Assembly (NCBI GenBank): GCA_045606105.1
Contig: JAZURI010000005.1
Span: 14,620-78,619, forward strand
Length of the DNA stretch: 64,000 bases
From: Spirochaetia bacterium
Lineage (GTDB): Bacteria > Spirochaetota > Spirochaetia > CADAEX01
Reading direction: 5' to 3'
The translations under genes and the position numbers were made by a program. This document shows positions 2,294 through 12,374 of the stretch, in pieces (positions within the stretch are counted from its first letter, which is position 1; each line of letters opens with the position of its first letter). Under the pieces are notes generated by a model. That model worked only from the letters and a program-made list of their open reading frames with translations, was not told where the DNA came from and ran no database searches.

Positions 2294-2410
2294 ACCTAAT
2301 GTGATGAATCTACACATACCATGTCAATATTCATGATAACAGGTGTAGGATCCGGAGCCGGTACAGGAGGAACTGTTGCGGCAGAACAAAGTGTACTGTA
2401 TAATAGACTT

Positions 2411-2878
2411 ATGTCTGAGGAAAAAGAATTTTACAAAAACAAAACCTTAGAGGAAATGACCCCGGAAGAATGGGAAATGCTCTGCGACGGATGCGGCAAA
2501 TGCTGTTATAACAAGTATATAACGGGCAGGGGAAAAAACACCAGGCTTTATTATACCAGCGTGAGCTGTAATTTTCTGGATGTCGGAACAGGGCGGTGCA
2601 TGGATTATGAAAACCGGTTCAGGAACAACAGGAACTGCCTGAAACTCTCATTACGCAACCTGAAGGAATTCACATGGCTGCCGGAAACCTGTGCATACAG
2701 GCTGATATATGAAGGAAAGAATCTTCCGGACTGGCATCCTCTGATAAGCGGCATTCCCGTTGCGGAAAATCCGGCGGCCCGGGAATACCTGATAAAAAAC
2801 GGAATCCGCGAATCCGAAGCAGAATACTGGGAAGACCATGTAATAAGCTGCTGCAGGTTGACCGATCTACAACAGTAG
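2411..2878 (+). CDS. ycgN: YcgN family cysteine-cluster protein (UPF0260); start revised from 2321 to 2411
   Basis: KTLEEMTPEEWEMLCDGCGKCC, WLPETCAYRL and LPDWHPLISG motifs; TATAAT 6 nt before ATG 2411; stop codon lies inside the terminal CRISPR repeat. Confidence 0.9.
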   Translation: MSEEKEFYKNKTLEEMTPEEWEMLCDGCGKCCYNKYITGRGKNTRLYYTSVSCNFLDVGTGRCMDYENRFRNNRNCLKLSLRNLKEFTWLPETCAYRLIYEGKNLPDWHPLISGIPVAENPAAREYLIKNGIRESEAEYWEDHVISCCRLTDLQQ

Positions 2879-4328
2879 AAATTTACTTAGAAGTCTAAAC
2901 TAACCCATTTCCTGAAGCCATTCCAATCTACAACAGTAGAAATTTACTTAGAAGTCTAAACGGTGCGGCGTAGTCGTTATCATCCAATCTACAACAGTAG
3001 AAATTTACTTAGAAGTCTAAACGCTCGGTGATAGCCTGGCCGAATTCAATCTACAACAGTAGAAATTTACTTAGAAGTCTAAACAAGTTGTAAAACCCAT
3101 TGACCATTTGATCTACAACAGTAGAAATTTACTTAGAAGTCTAAACGATTTCATAAGCTTCTGATAGTTCATATCTACAACAGTAGAAATTTACTTAGAA
3201 GTCTAAACACGATAGCAATAAACCAATACATCAAAATCTACAACAGTAGAAATTTACTTAGAAGTCTAAACTTTTCTGATATTAGTGATATTATCTATCT
3301 ACAACAGTAGAAATTTACTTAGAAGTCTAAACTTTTCTGATATTACTGATATTATCTATCTACAACAGTAGAAATTTACTTAGAAGTCTAAACAAGTTGC
3401 AAAACCCATTGACCATTTGATCTACAACAGTAGAAATTTACTTAGAAGTCTAAACGAAAGTGGTTAGAATAACAGGCAATTAATCTACAACAGTAGAAAT
3501 TTACTTAGAAGTCTAGACTCTTTATTGGTTTTGACACCATCTTTATCTACAACAGTAGAAATTTACTTAGAAGTCTAAACTCTTGAGCTACTGTCTTCAA
3601 ATCATACATCTACAACAGTAGAAATTTACTTAGAAGTCTAAACCGATTAAGCTCGGCGATTACCCGGTGATCTACAACAGTAGAAATTTACTTAGAAGTC
3701 TAAACAGGTCCAACTTCTACGATGTTCTGCCAATCTACAACAGTAGAAATTTACTTAGAAGTCTAAACGCTCCGCCTCTCAATTCATTGCCTCCATCTAC
3801 AACAGTAGAAATTTACTTAGAAGTCTAAACTTATCTAAATTCAAAGAAGCTTATGAATCTACAACAGTAGAAATTTACTTAGAAGTCTAAACGTGAATAT
3901 ATGTATATGGGAATTAAGATCTACAACAGTAGAAATTTACTTAGAAGTCTAAACCGGCAAAAACTTCAGGTAGAACATCAATCTACAACAGTAGAAATTT
4001 ACTTAGAAGTCTAAACTATAGATTCAAGATATGACTGAAACCATCTACAACAGTAGAAATTTACTTAGAAGTCTAAACCGGCAAAAACCTCAGGTAGAAC
4101 ATCAATCTACAACAGTAGAAATTTACTTAGAAGTCTAAACAGTGTTTCTGTCATTTTTTATCTCCTTATCTACAACAGTAGAAATTTACTTAGAAGTCTA
4201 AACCGAAATCAAGTTCATCTTCCACCTCCTATCTACAACAGTAGAAATTTACTTAGAAGTCTAAACTTCCCGAGGACTGTCTTGCCGTCCGTATCTACAA
4301 CAGTAGAAATTTACTTAGAAGTCTAAAC
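2865..4328 (-). CRISPR. Type V-A CRISPR array: 24 repeats of 36 nt, 23 spacers of 25-27 nt
   Basis: Repeat (minus strand) GTTTAGACTTCTAAGTAAATTTCTACTGTTGTAGAT ends in the canonical Cas12a handle AATTTCTACTGTTGTAGAT; only one variant repeat seen (3483-3518, A>G at 3516). Confidence 0.99.
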
Positions 4329-4434
4329 TCTAACAGTGGGTACAACAGTACCAAAATGGGCTTTTTCTTCAAAGTTTTCAAAGTTAAGCCTATATAAATT
4401 ACTGATTTTTCTCAGTAAGACCATAGGTCTGCAA
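4329..4434 (-). promoter_or_regulatory. CRISPR leader
   Basis: AT-rich 106 bp between the cas2 stop and the first repeat; contains an inverted repeat, a tandem direct repeat and a repeat-like hairpin. Confidence 0.85.
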
Positions 4435-4710
4435 TCAACTGATAAGAAAAATTTCTTTCTCTTCATTCTTTGCATATCCATAACATGTCTTTTTGCAGCT
4501 TTCACTTAATTCAAATATAATAATACTATCTTCTTCTGTAAAGTGTCTTGAATAGATATTTTCTATTTCTGTCTTTATGTTTCTTAAAACGGTTTCGCTA
4601 TTGTGTATCTCAAACACCGAATACTGAAGCCGAAAACCGAATTTAGCCAAAAATTTAGAAAATCGTGTTCTGATTTTATCATTACTTATGTCATAACTTA
4701 CCAGAAGCAT
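4435..4710 (-). CDS. cas2: CRISPR-associated endonuclease Cas2
   Basis: MLLVSYDISNDKIR and GFRLQYSVFEI motifs; adjacent to the array. Confidence 0.97.
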   Translation of the reverse strand: MLLVSYDISNDKIRTRFSKFLAKFGFRLQYSVFEIHNSETVLRNIKTEIENIYSRHFTEEDSIIIFELSESCKKTCYGYAKNEEKEIFLIS

Positions 4711-5681
4711 CAGGTTTCCTCCAGATAAAAAACCGGAAATTCCCCGGCCGGCTTATCCCTCATAAACGCCCTGTAATAGGATTGGATATAAATGAATATT
4801 TCATTTTTATATTCCATCAAGGTCTCCAGGAGTATTCCAATATACTTCTTTGAATTTTTCCAGGGAAGAATATATTGATTCTGATTTTTCCAGAAATCCT
4901 TTTCGTTGACCTGACCAAGATTCAATGTCTTCAATATTGCAGCATCAATAATAGGTCGAAATGGTTCTTCCAGATCACACACCAGAGATTTTCTATGAAA
5001 AAACTGAGTGTGCAGAATTCCCACATAGACATCAAAACCGTACATTTCAAGCAAAGCATTTACTATATTGAATAAAATTGTATAACCTATATCCATCAAT
5101 GTGTTTGTAATGTCATTCTTTACCCTGGGCTGCCGGGCTTTCCAGTTATAATCAGCAAACATAGTCTTAAAATATAATTTTGCACTTACCCCTTCGATTC
5201 CCATTATTTCCTGAACTGACAAACCTGCTTCCAGAACGTCTTTTTCATACTGTTCCAATTTAGCTATGATGATTTTTTCTTCTTCAGTCTTCTTTCGTTT
5301 CTTTTTCAACAAAAATGCCTGATTATGAATTTTGTTTGCAATTACGTGGGAAGCAATTTCTGTCTTATCGTATGCATACTGCTTCTGTCGAAGCAAAACA
5401 TTTCCCTCTGCTTTTGATGGAAGGATTGAAGTAATCCTCAGATTTGGGCTCATGAAAACTATTGTATATCCAAACTTCTTAGATCGATCCAGCAGCCCGC
5501 TTGTCAGACAGAAGTCTCCGCATATGAACAATGCAAACAACCGGTAACAGGTTGATTGATGTTTTATTTTTCCATCTCTGTCAGTTACTATAAAGTTATC
5601 GTTCTTGAAACTCAGCTTTTCTCCGTCCGATGTAAATACAAAAGCAATCTGCTTATGCTCAAAATCTCTTGTACTCATCAT
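4710..5681 (-). CDS. cas1: Type V CRISPR-associated endonuclease Cas1
   Basis: MGIEGVSAKLYF, NTLMDIGYTILF, GILH, SLVCDLEEPFRPIID. Confidence 0.97.
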   Translation of the reverse strand: MMSTRDFEHKQIAFVFTSDGEKLSFKNDNFIVTDRDGKIKHQSTCYRLFALFICGDFCLTSGLLDRSKKFGYTIVFMSPNLRITSILPSKAEGNVLLRQKQYAYDKTEIASHVIANKIHNQAFLLKKKRKKTEEEKIIIAKLEQYEKDVLEAGLSVQEIMGIEGVSAKLYFKTMFADYNWKARQPRVKNDITNTLMDIGYTILFNIVNALLEMYGFDVYVGILHTQFFHRKSLVCDLEEPFRPIIDAAILKTLNLGQVNEKDFWKNQNQYILPWKNSKKYIGILLETLMEYKNEIFIYIQSYYRAFMRDKPAGEFPVFYLEET

Positions 5682-6263
5682 CTAAAAGCCTCCGTTATAT
5701 TCCTTGGGAGCTAAAGGTCGGTCGCAGAAATCATTATAAATACATTTTTTACATTTTTCTTCATTCTGGGGAACAAATGCATTCATATCAAAATTCTGCA
5801 TTGCTTTGTTTGTTGCTTTAAACTTTTCAAACATCTGAACATCATCTTCCGGTAAAGGAACCGGATAAACTTTGTTATCGTCGCTGGAATAAAATCTAAG
5901 TTGTTTTACAGTATATCCCATCTCTCTGAGACAAAGGCACTGGGCATACAGTTGAAAAACGTATCCGTCATAAATTGTTTCAATATGCTTTTTTCGTTCT
6001 GTAAGTAATCCTTTTTCAATATCAAAAATATCTATTTTACCGCATAATTTATATTCATCAGAATAAATATCCAGACCTTGTAGAATATTTTTATGGGTAG
6101 AATACCGTTTTTCATCTATAGCCTCATGAGCAGCTTTCCCGTCAAGCTGGGCAGAACCATAGTATAGCCGTTCGGAAAGACTGCCGTAAAGCTGATGATA
6201 ATAAATGGAAAGAGGACAGAATATGAAATCATTCAAATAACTAATTCTTAGGTAAAGTTCCAT
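5682..6263 (-). CDS. cas4: Type V CRISPR-associated protein Cas4
   Basis: ISYLNDFIFCP, RecB-like GKID..ERKK..QLYAQ, C-terminal CKKC..FC Fe-S ligands. Confidence 0.96.
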   Translation of the reverse strand: MELYLRISYLNDFIFCPLSIYYHQLYGSLSERLYYGSAQLDGKAAHEAIDEKRYSTHKNILQGLDIYSDEYKLCGKIDIFDIEKGLLTERKKHIETIYDGYVFQLYAQCLCLREMGYTVKQLRFYSSDDNKVYPVPLPEDDVQMFEKFKATNKAMQNFDMNAFVPQNEEKCKKCIYNDFCDRPLAPKEYNGGF

Positions 6264-7104
6264 TTTCAGGCTCTTGGTTTACTAAATAATTTTCTGAAGA
6301 AATTACTGAATGCCCCAACTCCTTTTCTGTCTGCTTCCGGGCAATTCCTGCAACATTTCCGCCGCGGCTTGCAACTTTTTTGTTTTCATTAAAAGTTTCC
6401 GGTTTTTCCTGCTGCGAAATCTCTGTTGTAACACGCTCCCCAAGCATGGTAAAAATCAACTCCAGGTCTGTCATGTGATCACGCAGATTCTGATTTTTTT
6501 TAGTTAAACCTTTATATGTCTTATATTCAGAAGGTGTCAGTCCAAAAGTCGCTTTTGAAATTTCTGCTGTTAGAATCGCAAAATCTTTTTCTTTTGTAAT
6601 TCCACGCTCTTTCCATTCATCAGTTAAATTTTGACGAATTGCAATTCCTCGTAACCGTTTATCTATCCAATCTTTTGGGTAACCTTTTTTCTCGTAAAGC
6701 TCTTTCATTCTTTCTTGAGAAAGTTCTGGATTTTCAATTTCTTGTATGCGTTCATATCCAACTTGCGCAAGCCATTGCTTAAAAGGTTCAGCCTTTGGAG
6801 ATGGGATAGATTGAATTATACGAAGAATAGATTTTACATTGGCTGAAAGAGTCTTTCTTTTTACCCCGGCTGCAGTATACATTTCTACCTGGGGACAATT
6901 TGTCCCCAGGAAACTTCCGAGACTTTCATCTCTTTTTCTTAATTTTTTCAAATAATCTGTAGGATTTACGCTTTCTGTCAGAACTCCTACAACATCAACA
7001 ACAGAAAAATACCACTGTTCTTCTTCTTCATTCCAAACAGACCGGATTTTACCATCCTGAAAGATTTTAATATGTTGCAAAGATTTTTCAGAATTATTTT
7101 GCAT
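6241..7104 (-). CDS. Bro-N domain (phage antirepressor-like) DNA-binding protein embedded in the cas operon; likely start 7104 (287 aa)
   Basis: IRSVWNEEEEQWYFSVVDVVGVLT, LRIIQSIPSPKAEPFKQWLAQVGYERIQEIENPE and NLRDHMTDLELIF motifs of the Bro-N family. Confidence 0.88.
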   Translation of the reverse strand: MQNNSEKSLQHIKIFQDGKIRSVWNEEEEQWYFSVVDVVGVLTESVNPTDYLKKLRKRDESLGSFLGTNCPQVEMYTAAGVKRKTLSANVKSILRIIQSIPSPKAEPFKQWLAQVGYERIQEIENPELSQERMKELYEKKGYPKDWIDKRLRGIAIRQNLTDEWKERGITKEKDFAILTAEISKATFGLTPSEYKTYKGLTKKNQNLRDHMTDLELIFTMLGERVTTEISQQEKPETFNENKKVASRGGNVAGIARKQTEKELGHSVISSENYLVNQEPENGTLPKN

Positions 7105-10100
7105 ATTCTTTGTCCTGCACAAACTTGAACCAATCGGCATGAGAAATATTCTGTATTACACCCTTTTCATCACGGTTAAAATTATTTTGCAATAAATACA
7201 AGCCTTTTAATGCAATATGATATGCCCCGTTTGCATCTGCATCTATTGGCAACTTTGCATTTTTACCTTTTTTAGCTTCTTCCCTGGAATCAAAGAATGT
7301 TCCGTCTTCTGATTTTACAGGAGAAATTAAGTAGTCAATTTCTGTGTTTGGAATAGAATTTCTCATTTGCAAAATTGCATTAAACATTCTTAAAAGTGTA
7401 TCAAAAAATTTTGCATTTGATTTTTCAGCTTGGATTGTATGGACGGAATCAATAAAATTATCTTCATTATTCCAATTTATTCCAAAGTCATCAAAAATAT
7501 TCTTTAACTGTTCTGTTGGATTTATACTAATATTCATGCGTTCTGCTTTATTGTAAACAAGTCGTTCTCCTTTTGTGTAAACTTCCCACTTTTTCTTAAA
7601 ATCAGCATTATCACAGATTTTTCCATAATCAAATCCAAATACAAAACAATCTTCTTTTGAATCATAACGTAGAGAATCAAATTTTTCGAAAAACTCTTTT
7701 TTCTTTTCTACATTTGTTAATCCTTTTGTAATGAAAAGATTTGCAAAACCAGTTTTTGGATCAATTTTTGAAGTATAAGCTGCAGGGATATAGAAAAGCC
7801 ATCCACATTGTTTATTAACATCACTTACATTTGCAGATTTATTTGTTAATTGATAAGCATTAAGAACTCCACCAGGCTCTGTTACCTTTTTATCTTTGAA
7901 AACAAGATAATTTAGCTTTTCAATTAACATATTTTCAAATTTTTGATAAATCTGTCTTTCTACAGCAAAACGACCTCGCTTAAATCCAAAATTCAAATCT
8001 TCCATAACAACAATTGCGTTATGTTCAACCATCATTTTTGCAATTTCATGAACAACAGCAGATAGATAGCCTTCTTTTAATTCTTTGATATTTCCAATTG
8101 TTTGCCAGTTTTTACGAGCCTTGTCTCTGTCACCTTCTTTGTGTACAAGTTTTTCCTGATAATTTACTTTTACCGTTTTATCATTTCTAACTTGGTCAAC
8201 AAGATTCAATGTTTTTTGAAGTTCAATTTCACCTTTTTGATTTATTAATGAAAGATAAATAAGATGACGTTCTCCTCGATCCAATCCAATAATTTTTACA
8301 TCAGTATTACCACTTAACACTTCAAGAACTTGATTATTAAATTCTTTATTTGATTTATCAGGTGCCTTAAAGTTCATTGTAATAGGACAATGGAAAAGAT
8401 AAGTATCTTCTATAAAGCGATTATCCTTTGTAATATCGTGAGTTGCTTCTTTACAAACAACAACTCCTGAATCTAACAATGATTTTGCAGTTTCTGAAAT
8501 AGTATCAGTCATTTTGTTTTTGAATTGATAAATTTCTTGATAAATGTCTTCTGGAATTGATTTTCCGTCATTTGTTGTTCTATTTACAAGAATTGAACCT
8601 TTTTTGTGAACAGTTACTTTTTCTTTGTTCAAACTTGGTTTTCGCCAGAATAATTCTGCTTCTCCATTTAATTTTAGACAAACATCTTTTAAATTTTCTT
8701 CACTAAAAAGATTTTCCCAATAAAGTGTATGAAGATTTTTCTTTCCAGAAGTTTTTGAAGCAAAGTCTTTGTTATAGATTTGGAAAAGGAAAAGTTTTCC
8801 TTCGTTTACTAGTTTATCAATATACTCCTTACGGATAGTAACAAATTGAATTTGATATGCCTGCGAATTTACATCATCTGTAAAACTTTGAAACGAATAA
8901 TATTCTTTTGTTTCTTTGAAAATAAAATCATAAGCATCAAAGTATTCCTTTGTTAATACCTTATAATAATCAATATATTTTATTAAGTCGTCTTTACTAA
9001 AAGTATCAGAAGTTCGAAGATATGATTTTCTTTTTCTAATTTCATTTATTTCTGTAGGTAAGTAAGCATTTCGATATTCTTCAATTTGTCTATTTACACC
9101 ATCCGTATCTTTACGACCATTTTTTTTGACAGTTTTTCCATTAATCCTCAAAAGATTGGGAATATCTTTACTTGGATCAGCAGCCTGTAGATAAATCATT
9201 TTTTCATAATAATTTTCATTTTCCTTTGGTTTCGGATAACTTTTAAATTCATTATGAAAATTTTTATTCATAATACCTAAGTAATACTTTTCTTTTTCTC
9301 TTAATAAAATTGAACCATACATTAATTCATTATTCAAAGCCCAGCCTTTTGCACATGTAGGTGAATCAAAATTCAATTTTATCTTCTTCATTTCACCAGG
9401 TTTCTTTGTTACAAAATTACGAACTTTGTTATACAAAGGAACAACTTGAGCAAGTGCTGTTAATATATCATCTAATTTTGAATAAAAATTTGAATCCTTT
9501 TGTTCTTCACCACGATAATCAACAAGTTTTAAGTGATGGTAAAGATTTTGAACTTCGTCCAGATATACTTTTATTGGAGTGGCAGCTTCTTTCTCTTGTT
9601 GTAAATCATGAATATTTTCAAAATCTATTTTTTTAAAGGTCTTATTAATTTCACACAATAAATTTACTTCATAATTGTCAATTGTTTCTTTTGTCAGAAA
9701 AAATTCCTTTACGGATTTTTCAGCTTCAAGTCCAAATTCTGAGCACCACCTCTCATATGCAGCCTGCATATCGGTTAACGAGTAATCACTTTCTGCAATT
9801 TCATTTTTTAGATTATCCAACTGTCTGTCTGTCAGATTTTTCTTTGCTTTATCTTTTGCTATCAGAAATAAACCTTCTGTTAAAATTGACCAAGAATTAA
9901 AAATTTTCTTGGAAAATTTTGTAATAGATTTTGAAGGTACGTATATTTCTGATAAATCATATTCTTCATTGTTATTCAACAAATCCCGAATTAATTCTAT
10001 ATATTCTTCAACTACCGACGAATTGAATTCTTTTATAGTTAAGTAAACTTCTTCATTATTTTCAAATCCAACCGGAATAAAAGAAGCTGTACCTCGATCG

Positions 10101-11002
10101 CTTAAAATCTGCTTATAGAGTTCTACCATTTTCTTTTTAAGTTTATACTTTTCTTCATTCGGCAAAGCTTGTCTAGCAAGGTTTATAAATTCATTTAGGC
10201 CTTTAATTTTCTCAGTCCCGGCTTCGCCGGAAATTCCACCGATTATTGTATTATAAAAATCAATTCCACTTTGAGCTATAACACTGTTGAAACCATCAAT
10301 GGTAAATACATAATCAAGAGCTCTGCCTTTTAGATGGTCTTTCAAAGACTTTTCCGTATCACTGATTATTTTTGGAAAATTAACTTTCAAATAATTATAT
10401 AATTTGATATTTGCAAAAAATTTTGGAAAATTTTCATGCACAATACGGTAACTAATTGCAGTTGATTCTGCATCTGCACTGTACATGTTTTTCCTGTTCT
10501 CGTGAAAACCTACAAAATATGTACTGAATCTGTTAAAAGCAGCCAAAGCTTTCTGCTTATTTTTGATTTCGTCTTCAGGAGCATTTTTTATTAATTCAGG
10601 CAGAAGTTCCTTAAATAATCCATCCTTGAAAAGTTTATTATATTCTTTTTGAGCATGAAAACCCTCAACTATTTTTTTTCTTGCTATTGCTTGAAGTTTA
10701 TCAAGTTTAACTTTATGGGAAGCTTTTTTTTCTCTATCTCTCTCGTTCTGAAGCAAATCAAGCTGATTAAATAAATCTTCCCAGGAAAATGAAAATTCTT
10801 TGAGTGATTTCTCTATGAAATTTCTATGAATATTATCTATAAGTTTTTTTATTTCAGGATACGCTTCAGCACGCTGGATATCTGTTTTAAGAAACTGTTT
10901 TATATTTTCTTCAGTTTTTCCAATAGGTATTAATCTATTCCTCAAAGTAATAGAACGGGAATATCCGTTCTTCTGTCCGCAAAATTCATTTAAACCTTTC
11001 AT
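7094..11002 (-). CDS. cas12a: Cas12a (Cpf1) effector, ~1302 aa; likely start ATG 11002
   Basis: YSRSITLRNRLIPIGKT, YFVGFHENRKNMYS, LYNKVRNFVTKKP; intact RuvC motifs IIGLDRGERHL, VVMEDLNFGFKRGR, PIDADANGAYHIALKG; GGGGGAG RBS. Confidence 0.99.
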   Translation of the reverse strand: MKGLNEFCGQKNGYSRSITLRNRLIPIGKTEENIKQFLKTDIQRAEAYPEIKKLIDNIHRNFIEKSLKEFSFSWEDLFNQLDLLQNERDREKKASHKVKLDKLQAIARKKIVEGFHAQKEYNKLFKDGLFKELLPELIKNAPEDEIKNKQKALAAFNRFSTYFVGFHENRKNMYSADAESTAISYRIVHENFPKFFANIKLYNYLKVNFPKIISDTEKSLKDHLKGRALDYVFTIDGFNSVIAQSGIDFYNTIIGGISGEAGTEKIKGLNEFINLARQALPNEEKYKLKKKMVELYKQILSDRGTASFIPVGFENNEEVYLTIKEFNSSVVEEYIELIRDLLNNNEEYDLSEIYVPSKSITKFSKKIFNSWSILTEGLFLIAKDKAKKNLTDRQLDNLKNEIAESDYSLTDMQAAYERWCSEFGLEAEKSVKEFFLTKETIDNYEVNLLCEINKTFKKIDFENIHDLQQEKEAATPIKVYLDEVQNLYHHLKLVDYRGEEQKDSNFYSKLDDILTALAQVVPLYNKVRNFVTKKPGEMKKIKLNFDSPTCAKGWALNNELMYGSILLREKEKYYLGIMNKNFHNEFKSYPKPKENENYYEKMIYLQAADPSKDIPNLLRINGKTVKKNGRKDTDGVNRQIEEYRNAYLPTEINEIRKRKSYLRTSDTFSKDDLIKYIDYYKVLTKEYFDAYDFIFKETKEYYSFQSFTDDVNSQAYQIQFVTIRKEYIDKLVNEGKLFLFQIYNKDFASKTSGKKNLHTLYWENLFSEENLKDVCLKLNGEAELFWRKPSLNKEKVTVHKKGSILVNRTTNDGKSIPEDIYQEIYQFKNKMTDTISETAKSLLDSGVVVCKEATHDITKDNRFIEDTYLFHCPITMNFKAPDKSNKEFNNQVLEVLSGNTDVKIIGLDRGERHLIYLSLINQKGEIELQKTLNLVDQVRNDKTVKVNYQEKLVHKEGDRDKARKNWQTIGNIKELKEGYLSAVVHEIAKMMVEHNAIVVMEDLNFGFKRGRFAVERQIYQKFENMLIEKLNYLVFKDKKVTEPGGVLNAYQLTNKSANVSDVNKQCGWLFYIPAAYTSKIDPKTGFANLFITKGLTNVEKKKEFFEKFDSLRYDSKEDCFVFGFDYGKICDNADFKKKWEVYTKGERLVYNKAERMNISINPTEQLKNIFDDFGINWNNEDNFIDSVHTIQAEKSNAKFFDTLLRMFNAILQMRNSIPNTEIDYLISPVKSEDGTFFDSREEAKKGKNAKLPIDADANGAYHIALKGLYLLQNNFNRDEKGVIQNISHADWFKFVQDKEYAK

Positions 11003-11013
11003 CTCTCCCCCTT

Positions 11014-11904
11014 TCAATCCTTCTTTACGACTTCGGCCATGCTTGTTACCAGACCGGCCATGTTCTGGATATCGGACGGAACTATGATCTTGGTGGCTTT
11101 TCCGTCGGCGGCTTTTTCAAACGCCTCCAGGCCGCGGAGCCTGATTACGGCTTCATCAGGCATGGCTTCCTTGATCATCCTGATACCTTCTGCCTTTGCC
11201 TGCTGCACCTCAAGAATGGCCTGGGCCTCTCCTTTGGCCTTCTGTATTGCAGCCTCCTTCTCAGCCTCGGCCTGAAGTATCATGGCCTGTTTTTCACCTT
11301 CTGCCACCAGGATTGCACTCTGCTTCTGTCCTTCGGCAATGAGAATCTGCTCCCGGCGTTCCCTTTCTGCCTTCATCTACTTTTCCATGGCATCCTTGAT
11401 TGCTTCAGGTGGCATGATATTCTTCACCTCCACCCTGTTCACCTTGATTCCCCACGGATCTGTGGCTTCATCCAGGATACTTCTCATCTTGGTATTGATG
11501 ATATCGCGGCTTGTAAGGGTCTGGTCCAGCTCCAGCTCTCCGATGATGTTTCTCAGAGTGGTGGCCGAAAGATTCTCAAGAGCGCTTACCGGCTGCTCAA
11601 CTCCATAGGTAAACAGCTTCGGATCCGTAATCTGAAAATAGACAACGGTATCAATCATCATGGTTACATTATCCCTGGTAATAACCGGCTGGGGAGGGAA
11701 ATCGAGAACCCGTTCCTTGAGGGAAACGGTCTTTACTATTCTGTCGACAAACGGAAGCTTGATATGAATTCCCACATTCCAGGTACAGCTGTAGGTTCCC
11801 AGCCTCTCCAGAACAGAAGCATAGGACTGAGGAATAATTCTGATATTGGTAACAAGAAGAACTACCAGAATGACAAAAAGAGTGATACTTACATAAATGG
11901 ACAT
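11014..11904 (-). pseudogene. SPFH/band 7 (QmcA/stomatin-like) gene split in frame by TAG at 11377-11379 (175 aa + 120 aa parts)
   Basis: Both ORFs share one frame: ...AMEK-TAG-MKAERERR, where the family consensus is AMEKQMKAER; SPFH motifs VITRDNV, TTLRNIIG, ATDPWGIKVNRVEVK. Confidence 0.85.
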
Positions 11905-11912
11905 ATTGCCTC

Positions 11913-12374
11913 CTATTTATTTTTCTTTTCTATTACAAGAGTGTTTCCGTTGACCTTGATGACGGTACAGATCTCTCCCTTTGAAATCTCACCGCCATCT
12001 GCGGTACAGGCACTCCATTCCACCCCGTTGGCTGCCTTGGCTGTTCCCTTGGAAAAACGGCTGATATCTGCGGTAACCAGAACTTCCTGACCTGCCATGG
12101 CTTCCACATTTGTCTTTGCCTTGCCTGTTTTCAGCTTTCTGACAGCCAGAGGTCTGGTAAAAATAACAAGCAGGGCCGAAAAAAGGAAAAACAGGAGCAG
12201 CTGCCAGCCCAGCGGCATTCCGGTCAGAGATAAAAAAATCATGACAAATGCACTTGCGGCACACCAGATTGTCACCAGCGCCGCAGTTGCCGCCTCAACA
12301 AGCAGCATCAATATGAAAACTGCCAGCCAGAACCAGTAAAGGTGAGAAATAATGAAGCTGTATATTTCCGACAT
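11913..12374 (-). CDS. NfeD family (YbbJ-like) membrane protein
   Basis: Hydrophobic N-terminus plus OB-fold C-terminus (GVEWSA..G..C.VIKVNGNTLVI); classic SPFH partner; GGAGG RBS. Confidence 0.9.
   Translation of the reverse strand: MSEIYSFIISHLYWFWLAVFILMLLVEAATAALVTIWCAASAFVMIFLSLTGMPLGWQLLLFFLFSALLVIFTRPLAVRKLKTGKAKTNVEAMAGQEVLVTADISRFSKGTAKAANGVEWSACTADGGEISKGEICTVIKVNGNTLVIEKKNK

What the first reader, a model, noticed from the sequence alone, without database searches (positions are those of the whole stretch)
3085..4104. Three spacer pairs with identical ends that differ by exactly one nucleotide
Seen: 3085-3110 vs 3394-3419 (T3091/C3400), 3272-3296 vs 3333-3357 (G3285/C3346) and 3955-3980 vs 4079-4104 (T3965/C4089). 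There are no exact duplicates, and the 24 repeats show only one substitution in 864 nt, so duplication plus drift is an unlikely explanation for 3 of 3 pairs. The changes fall at guide positions 20, 12 and 16. In crRNA sense two are synonymous third-position changes in an open frame (NGQWVLQL, TTA/TTG; DVLPEVFA, GAA/GAG) and the third is conservative (T/S or L/V). Inference: the same protospacer was re-acquired from variant or escape targets with exact end precision. This would imply strong hotspot or primed-like spacer updating in a V-A system, perhaps linked to the extra Bro-N gene.
Basis: partly seen in the sequence, partly recalled or inferred. Interest (0 to 1): 0.75.

Follow-up and report, generated by a model that had tools for sequence, protein, structure and literature searches.

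The report
Near-twin spacers in a Cas12a array
A bacterial CRISPR memory bank of 23 entries holds three pairs that differ by a single letter, which most likely records the same spot of an invader being sampled twice from slightly different versions, but the invader itself could not be found.

Summary
Window 2865-4328 is a type V-A (Cas12a) CRISPR array read on the minus strand. It has 24 repeats and 23 spacers. Spacers 4/9, 7/8 and 18/20 have equal lengths and differ by one base. The other 250 spacer pairs differ at 11 or more positions.

The array is an outlier. In 59 other V-A arrays (1,073 spacers) I found 8 exact duplicate pairs and no one-base pair. Drift after in-array duplication fits poorly:
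- All 3 pairs here are changed, against 0 of 8 duplicates elsewhere (p=0.006).
- The pairs differ at 3 of 77 positions. A second strain's cas operon differs at 13 of 6,689, although its newest spacers are all different (p=0.0007).

My best reading, at about 0.5, is that the same protospacer was acquired twice from variant or near-identical targets. It is unproven: no target was found in any collection, so both alleles, the PAM and the order of events are inferred.

Priming and a Bro-N link have no support. The identical spacer ends and published base rates keep duplication plus mutation alive at about 0.27. Interest is moderate.

The parts
2865..4328 (-). Type V-A CRISPR array: 24 repeats of 36 nt and 23 spacers of 25-27 nt. 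Spacers are numbered 1 (oldest, 2901) to 23 (newest, next to the leader, 4292).
   Evidence: The reverse complement of the repeat ends in the Cas12a handle motif. That motif retrieved 120 loci; of the 146 loci in the database (these 120 plus 26 fetched earlier), 54 hit cas2 and 41 hit cas12a.
3085..3110 (-). Spacer 4, older member of pair A (T at 3091; guide position 20)
3394..3419 (-). Spacer 9, newer member of pair A (C at 3400)
3272..3296 (-). Spacer 7, older member of pair B (G at 3285; guide position 12). It is adjacent to its twin.
3333..3357 (-). Spacer 8, newer member of pair B (C at 3346)
3955..3980 (-). Spacer 18, older member of pair C (T at 3965; guide position 16)
4079..4104 (-). 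Spacer 20, newer member of pair C (C at 4089). One spacer (19) lies between the twins.
3483..3518 (-). The only variant repeat (substitution at 3516). The change lies in the 5' part of the repeat, outside the 19-nt handle.
4329..4434 (-). Leader between cas2 and the first repeat. It is identical in the second strain (G392:C161).
   Evidence: no difference between 4329 and 4592
4435..4710 (-). cas2
   Evidence: Pfam PF09827, E 9.8e-18
4710..5681 (-). cas1
   Evidence: Pfam PF01867, E 5.1e-51
5682..6263 (-). cas4 (type V kind)
   Evidence: Pfam PF01930; NCBIfam TIGR04328, 228 bits against a cut-off of 70
6241..7140 (-). Bro-N domain ORF (299 aa) between cas12a and cas4. It is part of the locus but not shown to be part of the spacer-pair phenomenon.
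   Evidence: Pfam PF02498, E 5e-10; phrog_15286, E 7e-109; found at the same place in other V-A loci
7094..11017 (-). cas12a (1,307 aa)
   Evidence: NCBIfam TIGR04330, 1,149 bits against a cut-off of 300; Pfam RuvC_1, REC1, NUC, REC2 and PI domains

Best explanation
The array belongs to an intact type V-A system (cas12a, Bro-N gene, cas4, cas1, cas2, leader, array). I think each twin pair most likely records two separate acquisitions of the same PAM-flanked protospacer. Each acquisition went in at the leader end, at a different time, from two versions of the target that differ by one base. Those versions could be co-circulating or successive variants of one phage or plasmid, or two near-identical copies within one element.

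Inferred mechanism: Cas4 fixes the PAM-side end and the Cas1-Cas2 ruler fixes the other end, so the same site gives the same spacer frame. A few strongly preferred sites, or a small target, would explain why 3 of 20 distinct protospacers were hit twice. Keeping both alleles is useful, because single mismatches, PAM-distal ones included, let phage escape Cas12a. Priming is not needed for this reading.

Shown: the pairs, their ends, their rarity elsewhere, and fast spacer turnover with a slow point-mutation clock at this locus.

Inferred: that targets exist with both alleles, the PAM, and that the newer copy was acquired rather than copied.
For: 1. Rarity. In 59 other V-A arrays (1,073 spacers, 16,452 within-array pairs) there were 8 exact duplicate pairs, no one-base pair, and three pairs with 2-4 differences. 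At that rate the window expects 0.17 near-identical pairs, so P(3 or more)=7e-4. For non-exact pairs alone the probability is 1.6e-5.
2. All 3 pairs are changed here, against 0 of 8 duplicates elsewhere (Fisher p=0.006).
3. Local clock. Contig G392:C161 matches window 4329-12002 with 38 substitutions in 7,674 nt. Only 13 of those fall in the 6,689 nt of cas operon plus leader. None of its six leader-proximal spacers (the sixth cut by the contig end; five compared in full) is among the window's 23. The twins differ at 3 of 77 nt, which is 20 times that rate (p=7e-4). Drift at that rate gives P(one change in each of 3 pairs) of 1e-4 to 4e-3.
4. Repeats here are no more mutated than elsewhere (1/828 against 58/38,419), so this is not an old, decaying array.
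5. Two of the three pairs are not adjacent (distances 2 and 5). The order 4,5,6,7,7',4' needs several rearrangements under copying, but only three acquisitions.
6. Spacer G+C runs in blocks along the array (lag-1 autocorrelation permutation p=0.03-0.08). All twins lie in low-G+C blocks, as expected for bursts of uptake from one source.
7. Spacer 4 of the second strain shares a 14-of-15 core with spacer 7 on the opposite strand (reached by 1 of 300 shuffles). This hints that related targets were sampled repeatedly near this site.
8. Precedents. Type I-C arrays of Legionella hold same or overlapping spacers in which the newer one fits the mobile element better (PMC5071653, passages). Most pre-existing Cas12a mismatches, PAM-distal ones included, lead to phage escape (PMC10132644, abstract).
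Against: - No protospacer was found for any pair, so neither allele is documented in a target and the PAM is unknown.
- Both ends are identical in all three pairs. With the array's own length spread (25 nt: 3; 26 nt: 11; 27 nt: 6) this has probability 0.045 if length is random per event. Of the three non-exact pairs in other arrays, only one had identical ends.
- All 8 exact duplicates elsewhere also share their ends, as copying predicts.
- Published reconstructions class 86% of repeated spacers as duplications and about 1% each as reacquisitions or independent insertions (PMC11472070, Table 2 passage).
- The twins sit close together (sum of distances 8; P=0.03 under random placement). Local copying predicts this too.
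- The strain-to-strain clock is uneven: 25 of the 38 substitutions lie in 11035-11748.
- The genome looks like a short-read bin, with a 16S fragment at a contig end, and I could not see reads.
Confidence: 0.5

Rival explanations
1. In-array copying followed by point mutation. Repeat-spacer units were duplicated by replication slippage or unequal recombination between repeats (7 to 8 in tandem; 18 to 20 and 4 to 9 with further rearrangement or non-tandem insertion). One copy of each pair then picked up a substitution.
For: - Both ends are identical in all three pairs, which is automatic under copying (P=0.045 otherwise).
- Exact duplicates with the same layout exist in other V-A arrays: 6 adjacent and 2 at distance 2.
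- Duplication is the commonest class of repeated spacers in isolates (PMC11472070; PMC4524480).
- M. tuberculosis arrays show tandem and non-tandem single-unit duplications, and spacer variants with up to 2 SNPs (PMC7968741, passages).
- If the older copies are the mutated ones, two of the three changes are C to T.
Against: - All 3 pairs are changed here, against 0 of 8 elsewhere (p=0.006).
- P(exactly one change in each pair) is 1e-4 to 0.018 across the rates tried.
- The twins differ 20 times more than the cas operon differs between two strains with different recent spacers.
- There is only 1 repeat substitution in 864 nt.
- Two of the three pairs need extra rearrangements.
Confidence: 0.27
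2. Assembly artefact. Two strain haplotypes, or a collapsed exact duplicate plus a strain SNP, were threaded in series by the assembler, so no single cell carries both alleles.
For: - The genome is probably a short-read bin: 11 contigs, with a 16S fragment cut by a contig end.
- At least one other strain with a different array exists, and its contig breaks inside the array.
- Published work reports many erroneous CRISPR loci in assemblies (PMC7968741, abstract passage).
Against: - Inference, not tested on reads: placing S-repeat-S' in tandem needs words that join the tail of S to the head of S across a 36-nt repeat. Such words exist only if a real tandem exists.
- Pairs A and C each have distinct neighbours on both sides.
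- The artefact would still need a SNP in each of three spacers between strains that differ by 0.2-0.5%, which is as unlikely as drift.
- There are no N bases in the window.
Confidence: 0.07
3. A dedicated 'updating' route. A partly mismatched crRNA-Cas12a complex on an escape variant directs Cas4-Cas1-Cas2, perhaps with the Bro-N protein, to re-capture that very protospacer. This is primed-like adaptation in a V-A system.
For: - Exactly one mismatch in each pair, short intervals between twins, and identical ends would all follow.
- Cas12 with crRNA strongly raised acquisition for the Francisella V-A system in E. coli (PMC13034035, passages).
- The Bro-N gene travels with the adaptation genes rather than with cas12a.
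Against: - A direct test saw no priming in V-A (PMC9419969, passages).
- Known priming takes new spacers from around the target, not the same protospacer (established knowledge, recalled).
- Position 20 is expected to matter little for Cas12a (recalled).
- Seven other arrays with the same Bro-N gene (191 spacers) have no pair with 3 or fewer differences.
- 0 of 59 other V-A arrays show one-base pairs.
Confidence: 0.1

Closest known systems
Same or overlapping spacers against LME-1 in Legionella pneumophila type I-C arrays (PMC5071653)
   Same: One array holds two spacers for the same target site. The newer one fits the circulating element better. The authors read this as repeated invasion by close relatives and escape followed by new uptake (passages).
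   Different: That is a type I system with proven priming and a known target, and its pairs overlap rather than share both ends. Here the system is type V-A, no target is known, the ends are identical, and there are three pairs in 23 spacers.
Repeat-spacer unit duplication by slippage or recombination (SpacerPlacer survey PMC11472070; M. tuberculosis DVR duplications PMC7968741)
   Same: A repeated spacer with identical ends, often adjacent. Eight such exact pairs were seen in other V-A arrays.
   Different: Those copies are exact, or vary between lineages of a static array. Here all three pairs differ by one base, in an array whose repeats and neighbouring genes show very little change.
Biased (hotspot) naive acquisition, giving independent acquisition of the same spacer (Kupczok et al., PMC4524480; V-A hotspots in PMC13034035)
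   Same: Strongly uneven sampling of protospacers makes the same site enter arrays more than once. Cas4 sets the PAM-side end.
   Different: Those cases were described across strains or in sequenced pools of cells. They were not seen as one-base twins inside one natural V-A array.

Membership tests
Type V-A CRISPR-Cas | Cas12a effector | tested here: met
   TIGR04330, 1,149 bits against a cut-off of 300; five Cas12a Pfam domains
Type V-A CRISPR-Cas | Cas4-Cas1-Cas2 adaptation genes next to the effector, with the array downstream on the same strand | tested here: met
   all on the minus strand, with the leader at 4329-4434
Type V-A CRISPR-Cas | 36-nt repeat whose 3' end forms the Cas12a crRNA handle | tested here: met
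   The repeat's reverse complement ends in the motif used. That motif retrieved 120 loci; of the 146 loci in the database (these 120 plus 26 fetched earlier), 41 hit cas12a and 54 hit cas2. That this is the canonical handle is recalled.
Type V-A CRISPR-Cas | No tracrRNA | not tested
   No search was made.
Re-acquisition of one protospacer from variant targets | Both alleles exist in natural targets next to a functional PAM | tested here: inconclusive
   No target was found in viral contigs, metagenome contigs (19-21), phages (7, 53-55), the organism's own genome (14) or 19 related genomes (15, 65-67).
Re-acquisition of one protospacer from variant targets | The newer copy entered at the leader end (seen in related strains' arrays) | not testable with these tools
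   The only second strain found (G392:C161) shows six repeats and shares no spacer.
Slippage duplication of repeat-spacer units | The copy is identical in sequence and ends | tested here: not met
   The ends are identical, but each of the 3 pairs has one substitution. 8 of 8 duplicates in other arrays are exact.
Slippage duplication of repeat-spacer units | Copies lie in tandem | tested here: inconclusive
   1 of 3 pairs is adjacent; the others are at distances 2 and 5. Non-tandem cases are known.
Primed adaptation | A pre-existing, partly matching spacer raises uptake from the same element, dependent on the effector, with a strand or distance pattern | not testable with these tools
   This needs the target genome or an assay. 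The literature reports no priming seen in V-A and Cas12 plus crRNA boosting uptake.

The most novel reading that the evidence does not exclude
This V-A system 'updates' its memory. When a target escapes by one base, the mismatched Cas12a-crRNA complex marks that very site, and Cas4-Cas1-Cas2 (possibly helped by the conserved Bro-N protein) re-captures it with identical ends. The array would then keep allele series of the same protospacer. That would be a form of priming not described for class 2 systems.
Probability: 0.1. Interest if true: 0.75.

Novelty: new member of a known kind. Interest (0 to 1): 0.4.

Why it matters
If the twins are re-acquisitions, this array is a natural record of a Cas12a host tracking single-base variation in its invader. 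It would also show that V-A adaptation can hit the same site repeatedly with the same ends. Such hotspot strength has only been seen in heterologous assays.

It gives a concrete test case for whether V-A systems have any target-guided uptake. The two published studies I read disagree on the role of Cas12.

In practice, one-base twins could serve as markers to find co-evolving phage-host pairs in gut metagenomes. If they are instead copied units that mutated, the finding is ordinary array evolution.

Tried and rejected
**Target searches (all empty or at chance level)**
- Exact scans of viral contigs for the three pairs with the variable base left open.
- Exact scans of viral contigs for 20-mers of spacers 19 and 23.
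- Metagenome contigs for pair C at full length: 0 hits.
- Metagenome contigs for the 19 PAM-proximal bases of pair A: 24 loci, none extending into the rest of the spacer, best 4 of 7.
- blastn of the whole array against phage records gave only repeat-like or chance hits. The three pair spacers searched alone gave a best E of 0.6.
- The organism's own genome has no self-target.
- 19 genomes of the same family showed nothing by BLAST. Pattern search with up to 3 mismatches gave only AT-rich chance hits for pair B, with a control hit as well.

**Reads**
- The look-up of sequencing runs listed 20 runs holding part of the stretch, none holding half of its words.
- I laid contigs of four animal-gut runs (X1, X2, X5, X7). 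They cover only the flanks and break at the repeats, and none of the 23 spacers was covered. These are k=31 contigs, so this says nothing about phasing or absence.

**Other strains' arrays**
- The exact repeat was not found in viral contigs.
- In 338 genomes of G392's genus it occurred only in G392 itself. In 401 genomes sampled from the window's phylum it occurred only in G000.
- G392 has no further array piece.

**Array-as-ORF trick**
- Translated array ORFs were searched in the protein collection. 63 hits came back, all from other Cas12a repeats and none with this repeat's peptide. A second query gave 1 weak hit.
- Exact look-up of 4 array ORFs found none in the collection.

**Arguments rejected**
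- The codon argument.
- The Bro-N link to twin spacers.
- Recombination between two strains' arrays as the source of pairs A and B. The order 4..7,7',4' is the reverse of what a transferred block would give (inference).

- Two papers were read and found not to bear on the question: 10.1101/2021.11.12.468349 and PMC10370329.
- I did not open supplementary files. Those of PMC9419969 and PMC13034035 may hold per-protospacer length data that bear on end precision.
- My searches found no paper describing one-base twin spacers in a V-A array, and none linking Bro-N genes with type V loci. The library is limited to open-access papers and preprints.

Full report
**What is there**

Window 2865-4328 holds 24 copies of a 36-nt repeat separated by 23 spacers of 25-27 nt. 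On the minus strand, just upstream, lie cas12a (7094-11017), a Bro-N domain ORF (6241-7140), cas4 (5682-6263), cas1 (4710-5681) and cas2 (4435-4710). A 106-nt leader follows. Cas12a scores 1,149 bits against NCBIfam TIGR04330 (cut-off 300). Cas4 matches the type V model.

The reverse complement of the repeat ends in the Cas12a handle motif. tblastn with the window's Cas proteins against the 146 loci held at that point (these 120 plus 26 fetched earlier) hit cas2 in 54 and cas12a in 41. The array is therefore read on the minus strand. The leader-proximal, newest spacer is at 4267-4292 and the oldest at 2901-2925. I number spacers 1 (oldest) to 23 (newest).

**The observation**

It is correct in every detail. 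Spacers 4/9, 7/8 and 18/20 have equal lengths and differ at one base: T3091/C3400, G3285/C3346 and T3965/C4089. These are guide positions 20, 12 and 16. The other 250 of 253 spacer pairs differ at 11 or more positions, and there is no exact duplicate. One repeat of the 24 carries one substitution, at 3516. The genome (1.46 Mb, 11 contigs) holds no other copy of the repeat and no self-target.

**How unusual it is**

From the 120 loci, plus the array of a same-genus genome, I extracted 63 arrays. For 59 of them the repeat could be delimited. The four dropped were L116, L129, L131 and L153, and none of these had a near pair. The 59 arrays give 1,073 spacers and 16,452 within-array pairs. The near-identical pairs among them were:
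- 8 exact duplicate pairs, 6 adjacent and 2 with one spacer between;
- 0 pairs with one difference;
- 1 pair with two differences;
- 1 pair with three differences and a 2-nt shift;
- 1 pair with four differences.

At that rate the window's 253 pairs should give 0.17 near-identical pairs, so P(3 or more)=7e-4. For non-exact pairs alone the probability is 1.6e-5. The array is a clear outlier, whatever the mechanism.

**Copying plus drift**

The chance that 3 or more of 4 changes fall in the 154 nt of paired spacers is 0.012. It rises to 0.065 if only the 17-nt repeat part outside the handle is taken as free to change. Two new tests are stronger.

First, all 3 pairs are changed here, against 0 of 8 duplicates in other arrays (Fisher p=0.006). 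Repeats here are no more mutated than elsewhere (1/828 against 58/38,419 nt).

Second, there is a local clock. A search with the Bro-N protein in another family turned up an 8,051-nt contig (G392:C161) that matches window 4329-12002 with 38 substitutions and no gaps. Only 13 of the 38 fall in the 6,689 nt of cas operon plus leader (0.19%). The other 25 cluster in 11035-11748.

This contig carries the same repeat six times. None of its leader-proximal spacers is among the window's 23; the five complete ones were compared in full. So spacers turn over faster at this locus than point changes accumulate. The twins differ at 3 of 77 aligned bases, which is 20 times the cas-operon rate (Fisher p=7e-4). 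Across the rates I tried, the chance of exactly one change in each of three copied pairs is 1e-4 to 0.018.

**What speaks for copying all the same**

- Both ends are identical in all three pairs. With the array's own length spread this has probability 0.045 if length is drawn anew at each acquisition.
- Of the three non-exact pairs elsewhere, only one shares both ends.
- All eight exact duplicates elsewhere share ends and lie adjacent or one unit apart. This is the same layout as pairs B and C.
- A large survey of isolates classed 3.3% of spacers as duplication candidates. Of these, 86% were duplications and about 1% each were reacquisitions or independent insertions (PMC11472070, passages). 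M. tuberculosis shows non-tandem single-unit duplications and spacer SNP variants (PMC7968741, passages).
- The closeness of the twins (P=0.03 under random placement) fits both copying and bursts of uptake.

**Assembly artefact**

A 16S fragment cut by a contig end suggests a short-read bin, and at least one other strain exists. I could not see reads. The one read-laying run used k=31 contigs that break at every repeat.

By inference, a tandem S-repeat-S' cannot be built without words that join the tail of S to the head of S across the repeat. Pairs A and C also have distinct neighbours on both sides. An artefact would still need three strain SNPs in spacers at 0.2-0.5% divergence. I give it 0.07.

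The translations are right. However, 940 of 1,569 possible single changes in these spacers (60%) are synonymous in at least one open frame, so two of three has P=0.65. This is no evidence for coding-constrained target variation.

Priming cannot be tested without a target. The direct study saw none in V-A and found that Cas4, not Cas12, sets the PAM (PMC9419969, passages). A later study found that Cas12 with crRNA strongly boosts uptake (PMC13034035, passages).

The Bro-N gene is a conserved part of a subgroup of V-A loci. In four of the motif-retrieved loci and ten further places it lies between cas12a and cas4. It is 74-86% identical there, together with Cas4/1/2 at 75-84%, while Cas12a ranges from 34% (full length) to 84%. 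But seven other arrays next to it (191 spacers) have no pair with 3 or fewer differences, so it does not explain the twins.

**Supporting hints for repeated sampling**

- Spacer G+C content runs in blocks (permutation p=0.03-0.08). All twins lie in the low-G+C blocks 4-12 and 16-21.
- Spacer 4 of the second strain shares 14 of 15 bases with spacer 7 on the opposite strand (1 of 300 mononucleotide shuffles reach this). The core is AT-rich and internally repetitive, so this is weak.
- Single Cas12a mismatches, PAM-distal ones included, lead to phage escape (PMC10132644, abstract). Holding both alleles would therefore be useful.
- Same or overlapping spacers in which the newer one fits better are described for Legionella type I-C (PMC5071653, passages).

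**Verdict**

The pairs are real and exceptional among V-A arrays. My estimates are:

| Reading | Confidence |
|---|---|
| Separate acquisition of the same protospacer from one-base variants or near-identical copies of a target | about 0.5 |
| Copying followed by mutation | about 0.27 |
| A dedicated primed-like route | about 0.1 |
| Assembly artefact | about 0.07 |

None of the decisive data could be obtained: targets with both alleles, read phasing, or related strains' arrays. The phenomenon is a V-A example of something already described for other CRISPR types. Interest is moderate.

Noticed in passing
window 6241-7140 (-); L063, L116, L143, L155, L160-L171, L200-L207: The 299-aa Bro-N ORF is a conserved member of a subgroup of V-A loci and always lies between cas12a and cas4. 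In records titled Treponema, Bacteroidales and Termititenax MAGs it is 54-86% identical. It keeps pace with Cas4/Cas1/Cas2 (75-84%), while Cas12a ranges from 34% (full length) to 84%, so it travels with the adaptation genes. Homologues at 57% identity or less have no cas neighbours, with one exception. It matches phrog_15286 over its full length (E 7e-109) and, weakly, the C-terminal part of DinD (E 4.6e-5, below the cut-off). Two literature searches found nothing linking Bro-N to type V loci.
   Followed up: partly
L193 = G392:C161:1-8051 against window 4329-12002: An 8-kb contig binned in a genome of another family is 99.5% identical to the window outside the array. It has the same repeat and leader, but none of its six leader-proximal spacers (the last cut by the contig end) is in the window. 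It is either a mis-binned contig of a second strain of the window's species or a very recent transfer.
   Followed up: partly
window 11035-11748: 25 of the 38 substitutions between the two strains fall in this 714-nt stretch (SPFH/Band 7 and neighbouring ORFs). That is 3.5% divergence, against 0.19% in the cas operon. It looks like a recombination tract or a fast-evolving segment.
   Followed up: no
L193:7900-7925 against window 3272-3296: Spacer 4 of the second strain shares a 14-of-15 core with spacer 7, on the opposite strand. The flanks do not match. 1 of 300 shuffles reach this. The core is an AT-rich internal direct repeat.
   Followed up: partly
L068 (4 pairs), L121 (2), L069, L100: Exact duplicate spacers cluster in a few other V-A arrays. 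One array of 32 spacers has four pairs. Two of the eight pairs have the S-X-S layout, which simple tandem slippage does not give in one step.
   Followed up: no
window 2901-4292: Spacer G+C content runs in blocks: 44-58% for spacers 1-3, 20-38% for 4-12, 48-58% for 13-15, 23-46% for 16-21 and 44-62% for 22-23. This suggests bursts of uptake from compositionally distinct sources.
   Followed up: partly
window 2321-2878 (+): An ORF with a CxxCxxCC zinc/iron-chelating domain ends 14 nt inside the last (oldest) repeat of the array.
   Followed up: no
L010 = G006:C12:2585-7079: A same-genus genome carries a V-A array of 26 repeats. Its repeat has a different 5' part and it shares no spacers with the window. 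Its Cas1 and Cas2 are 71-75% identical to the window's.
   Followed up: partly
G000:C2:330173-330817: The only 16S rRNA match is a 3' fragment cut by the contig end. This is typical of short-read metagenome bins.
   Followed up: no
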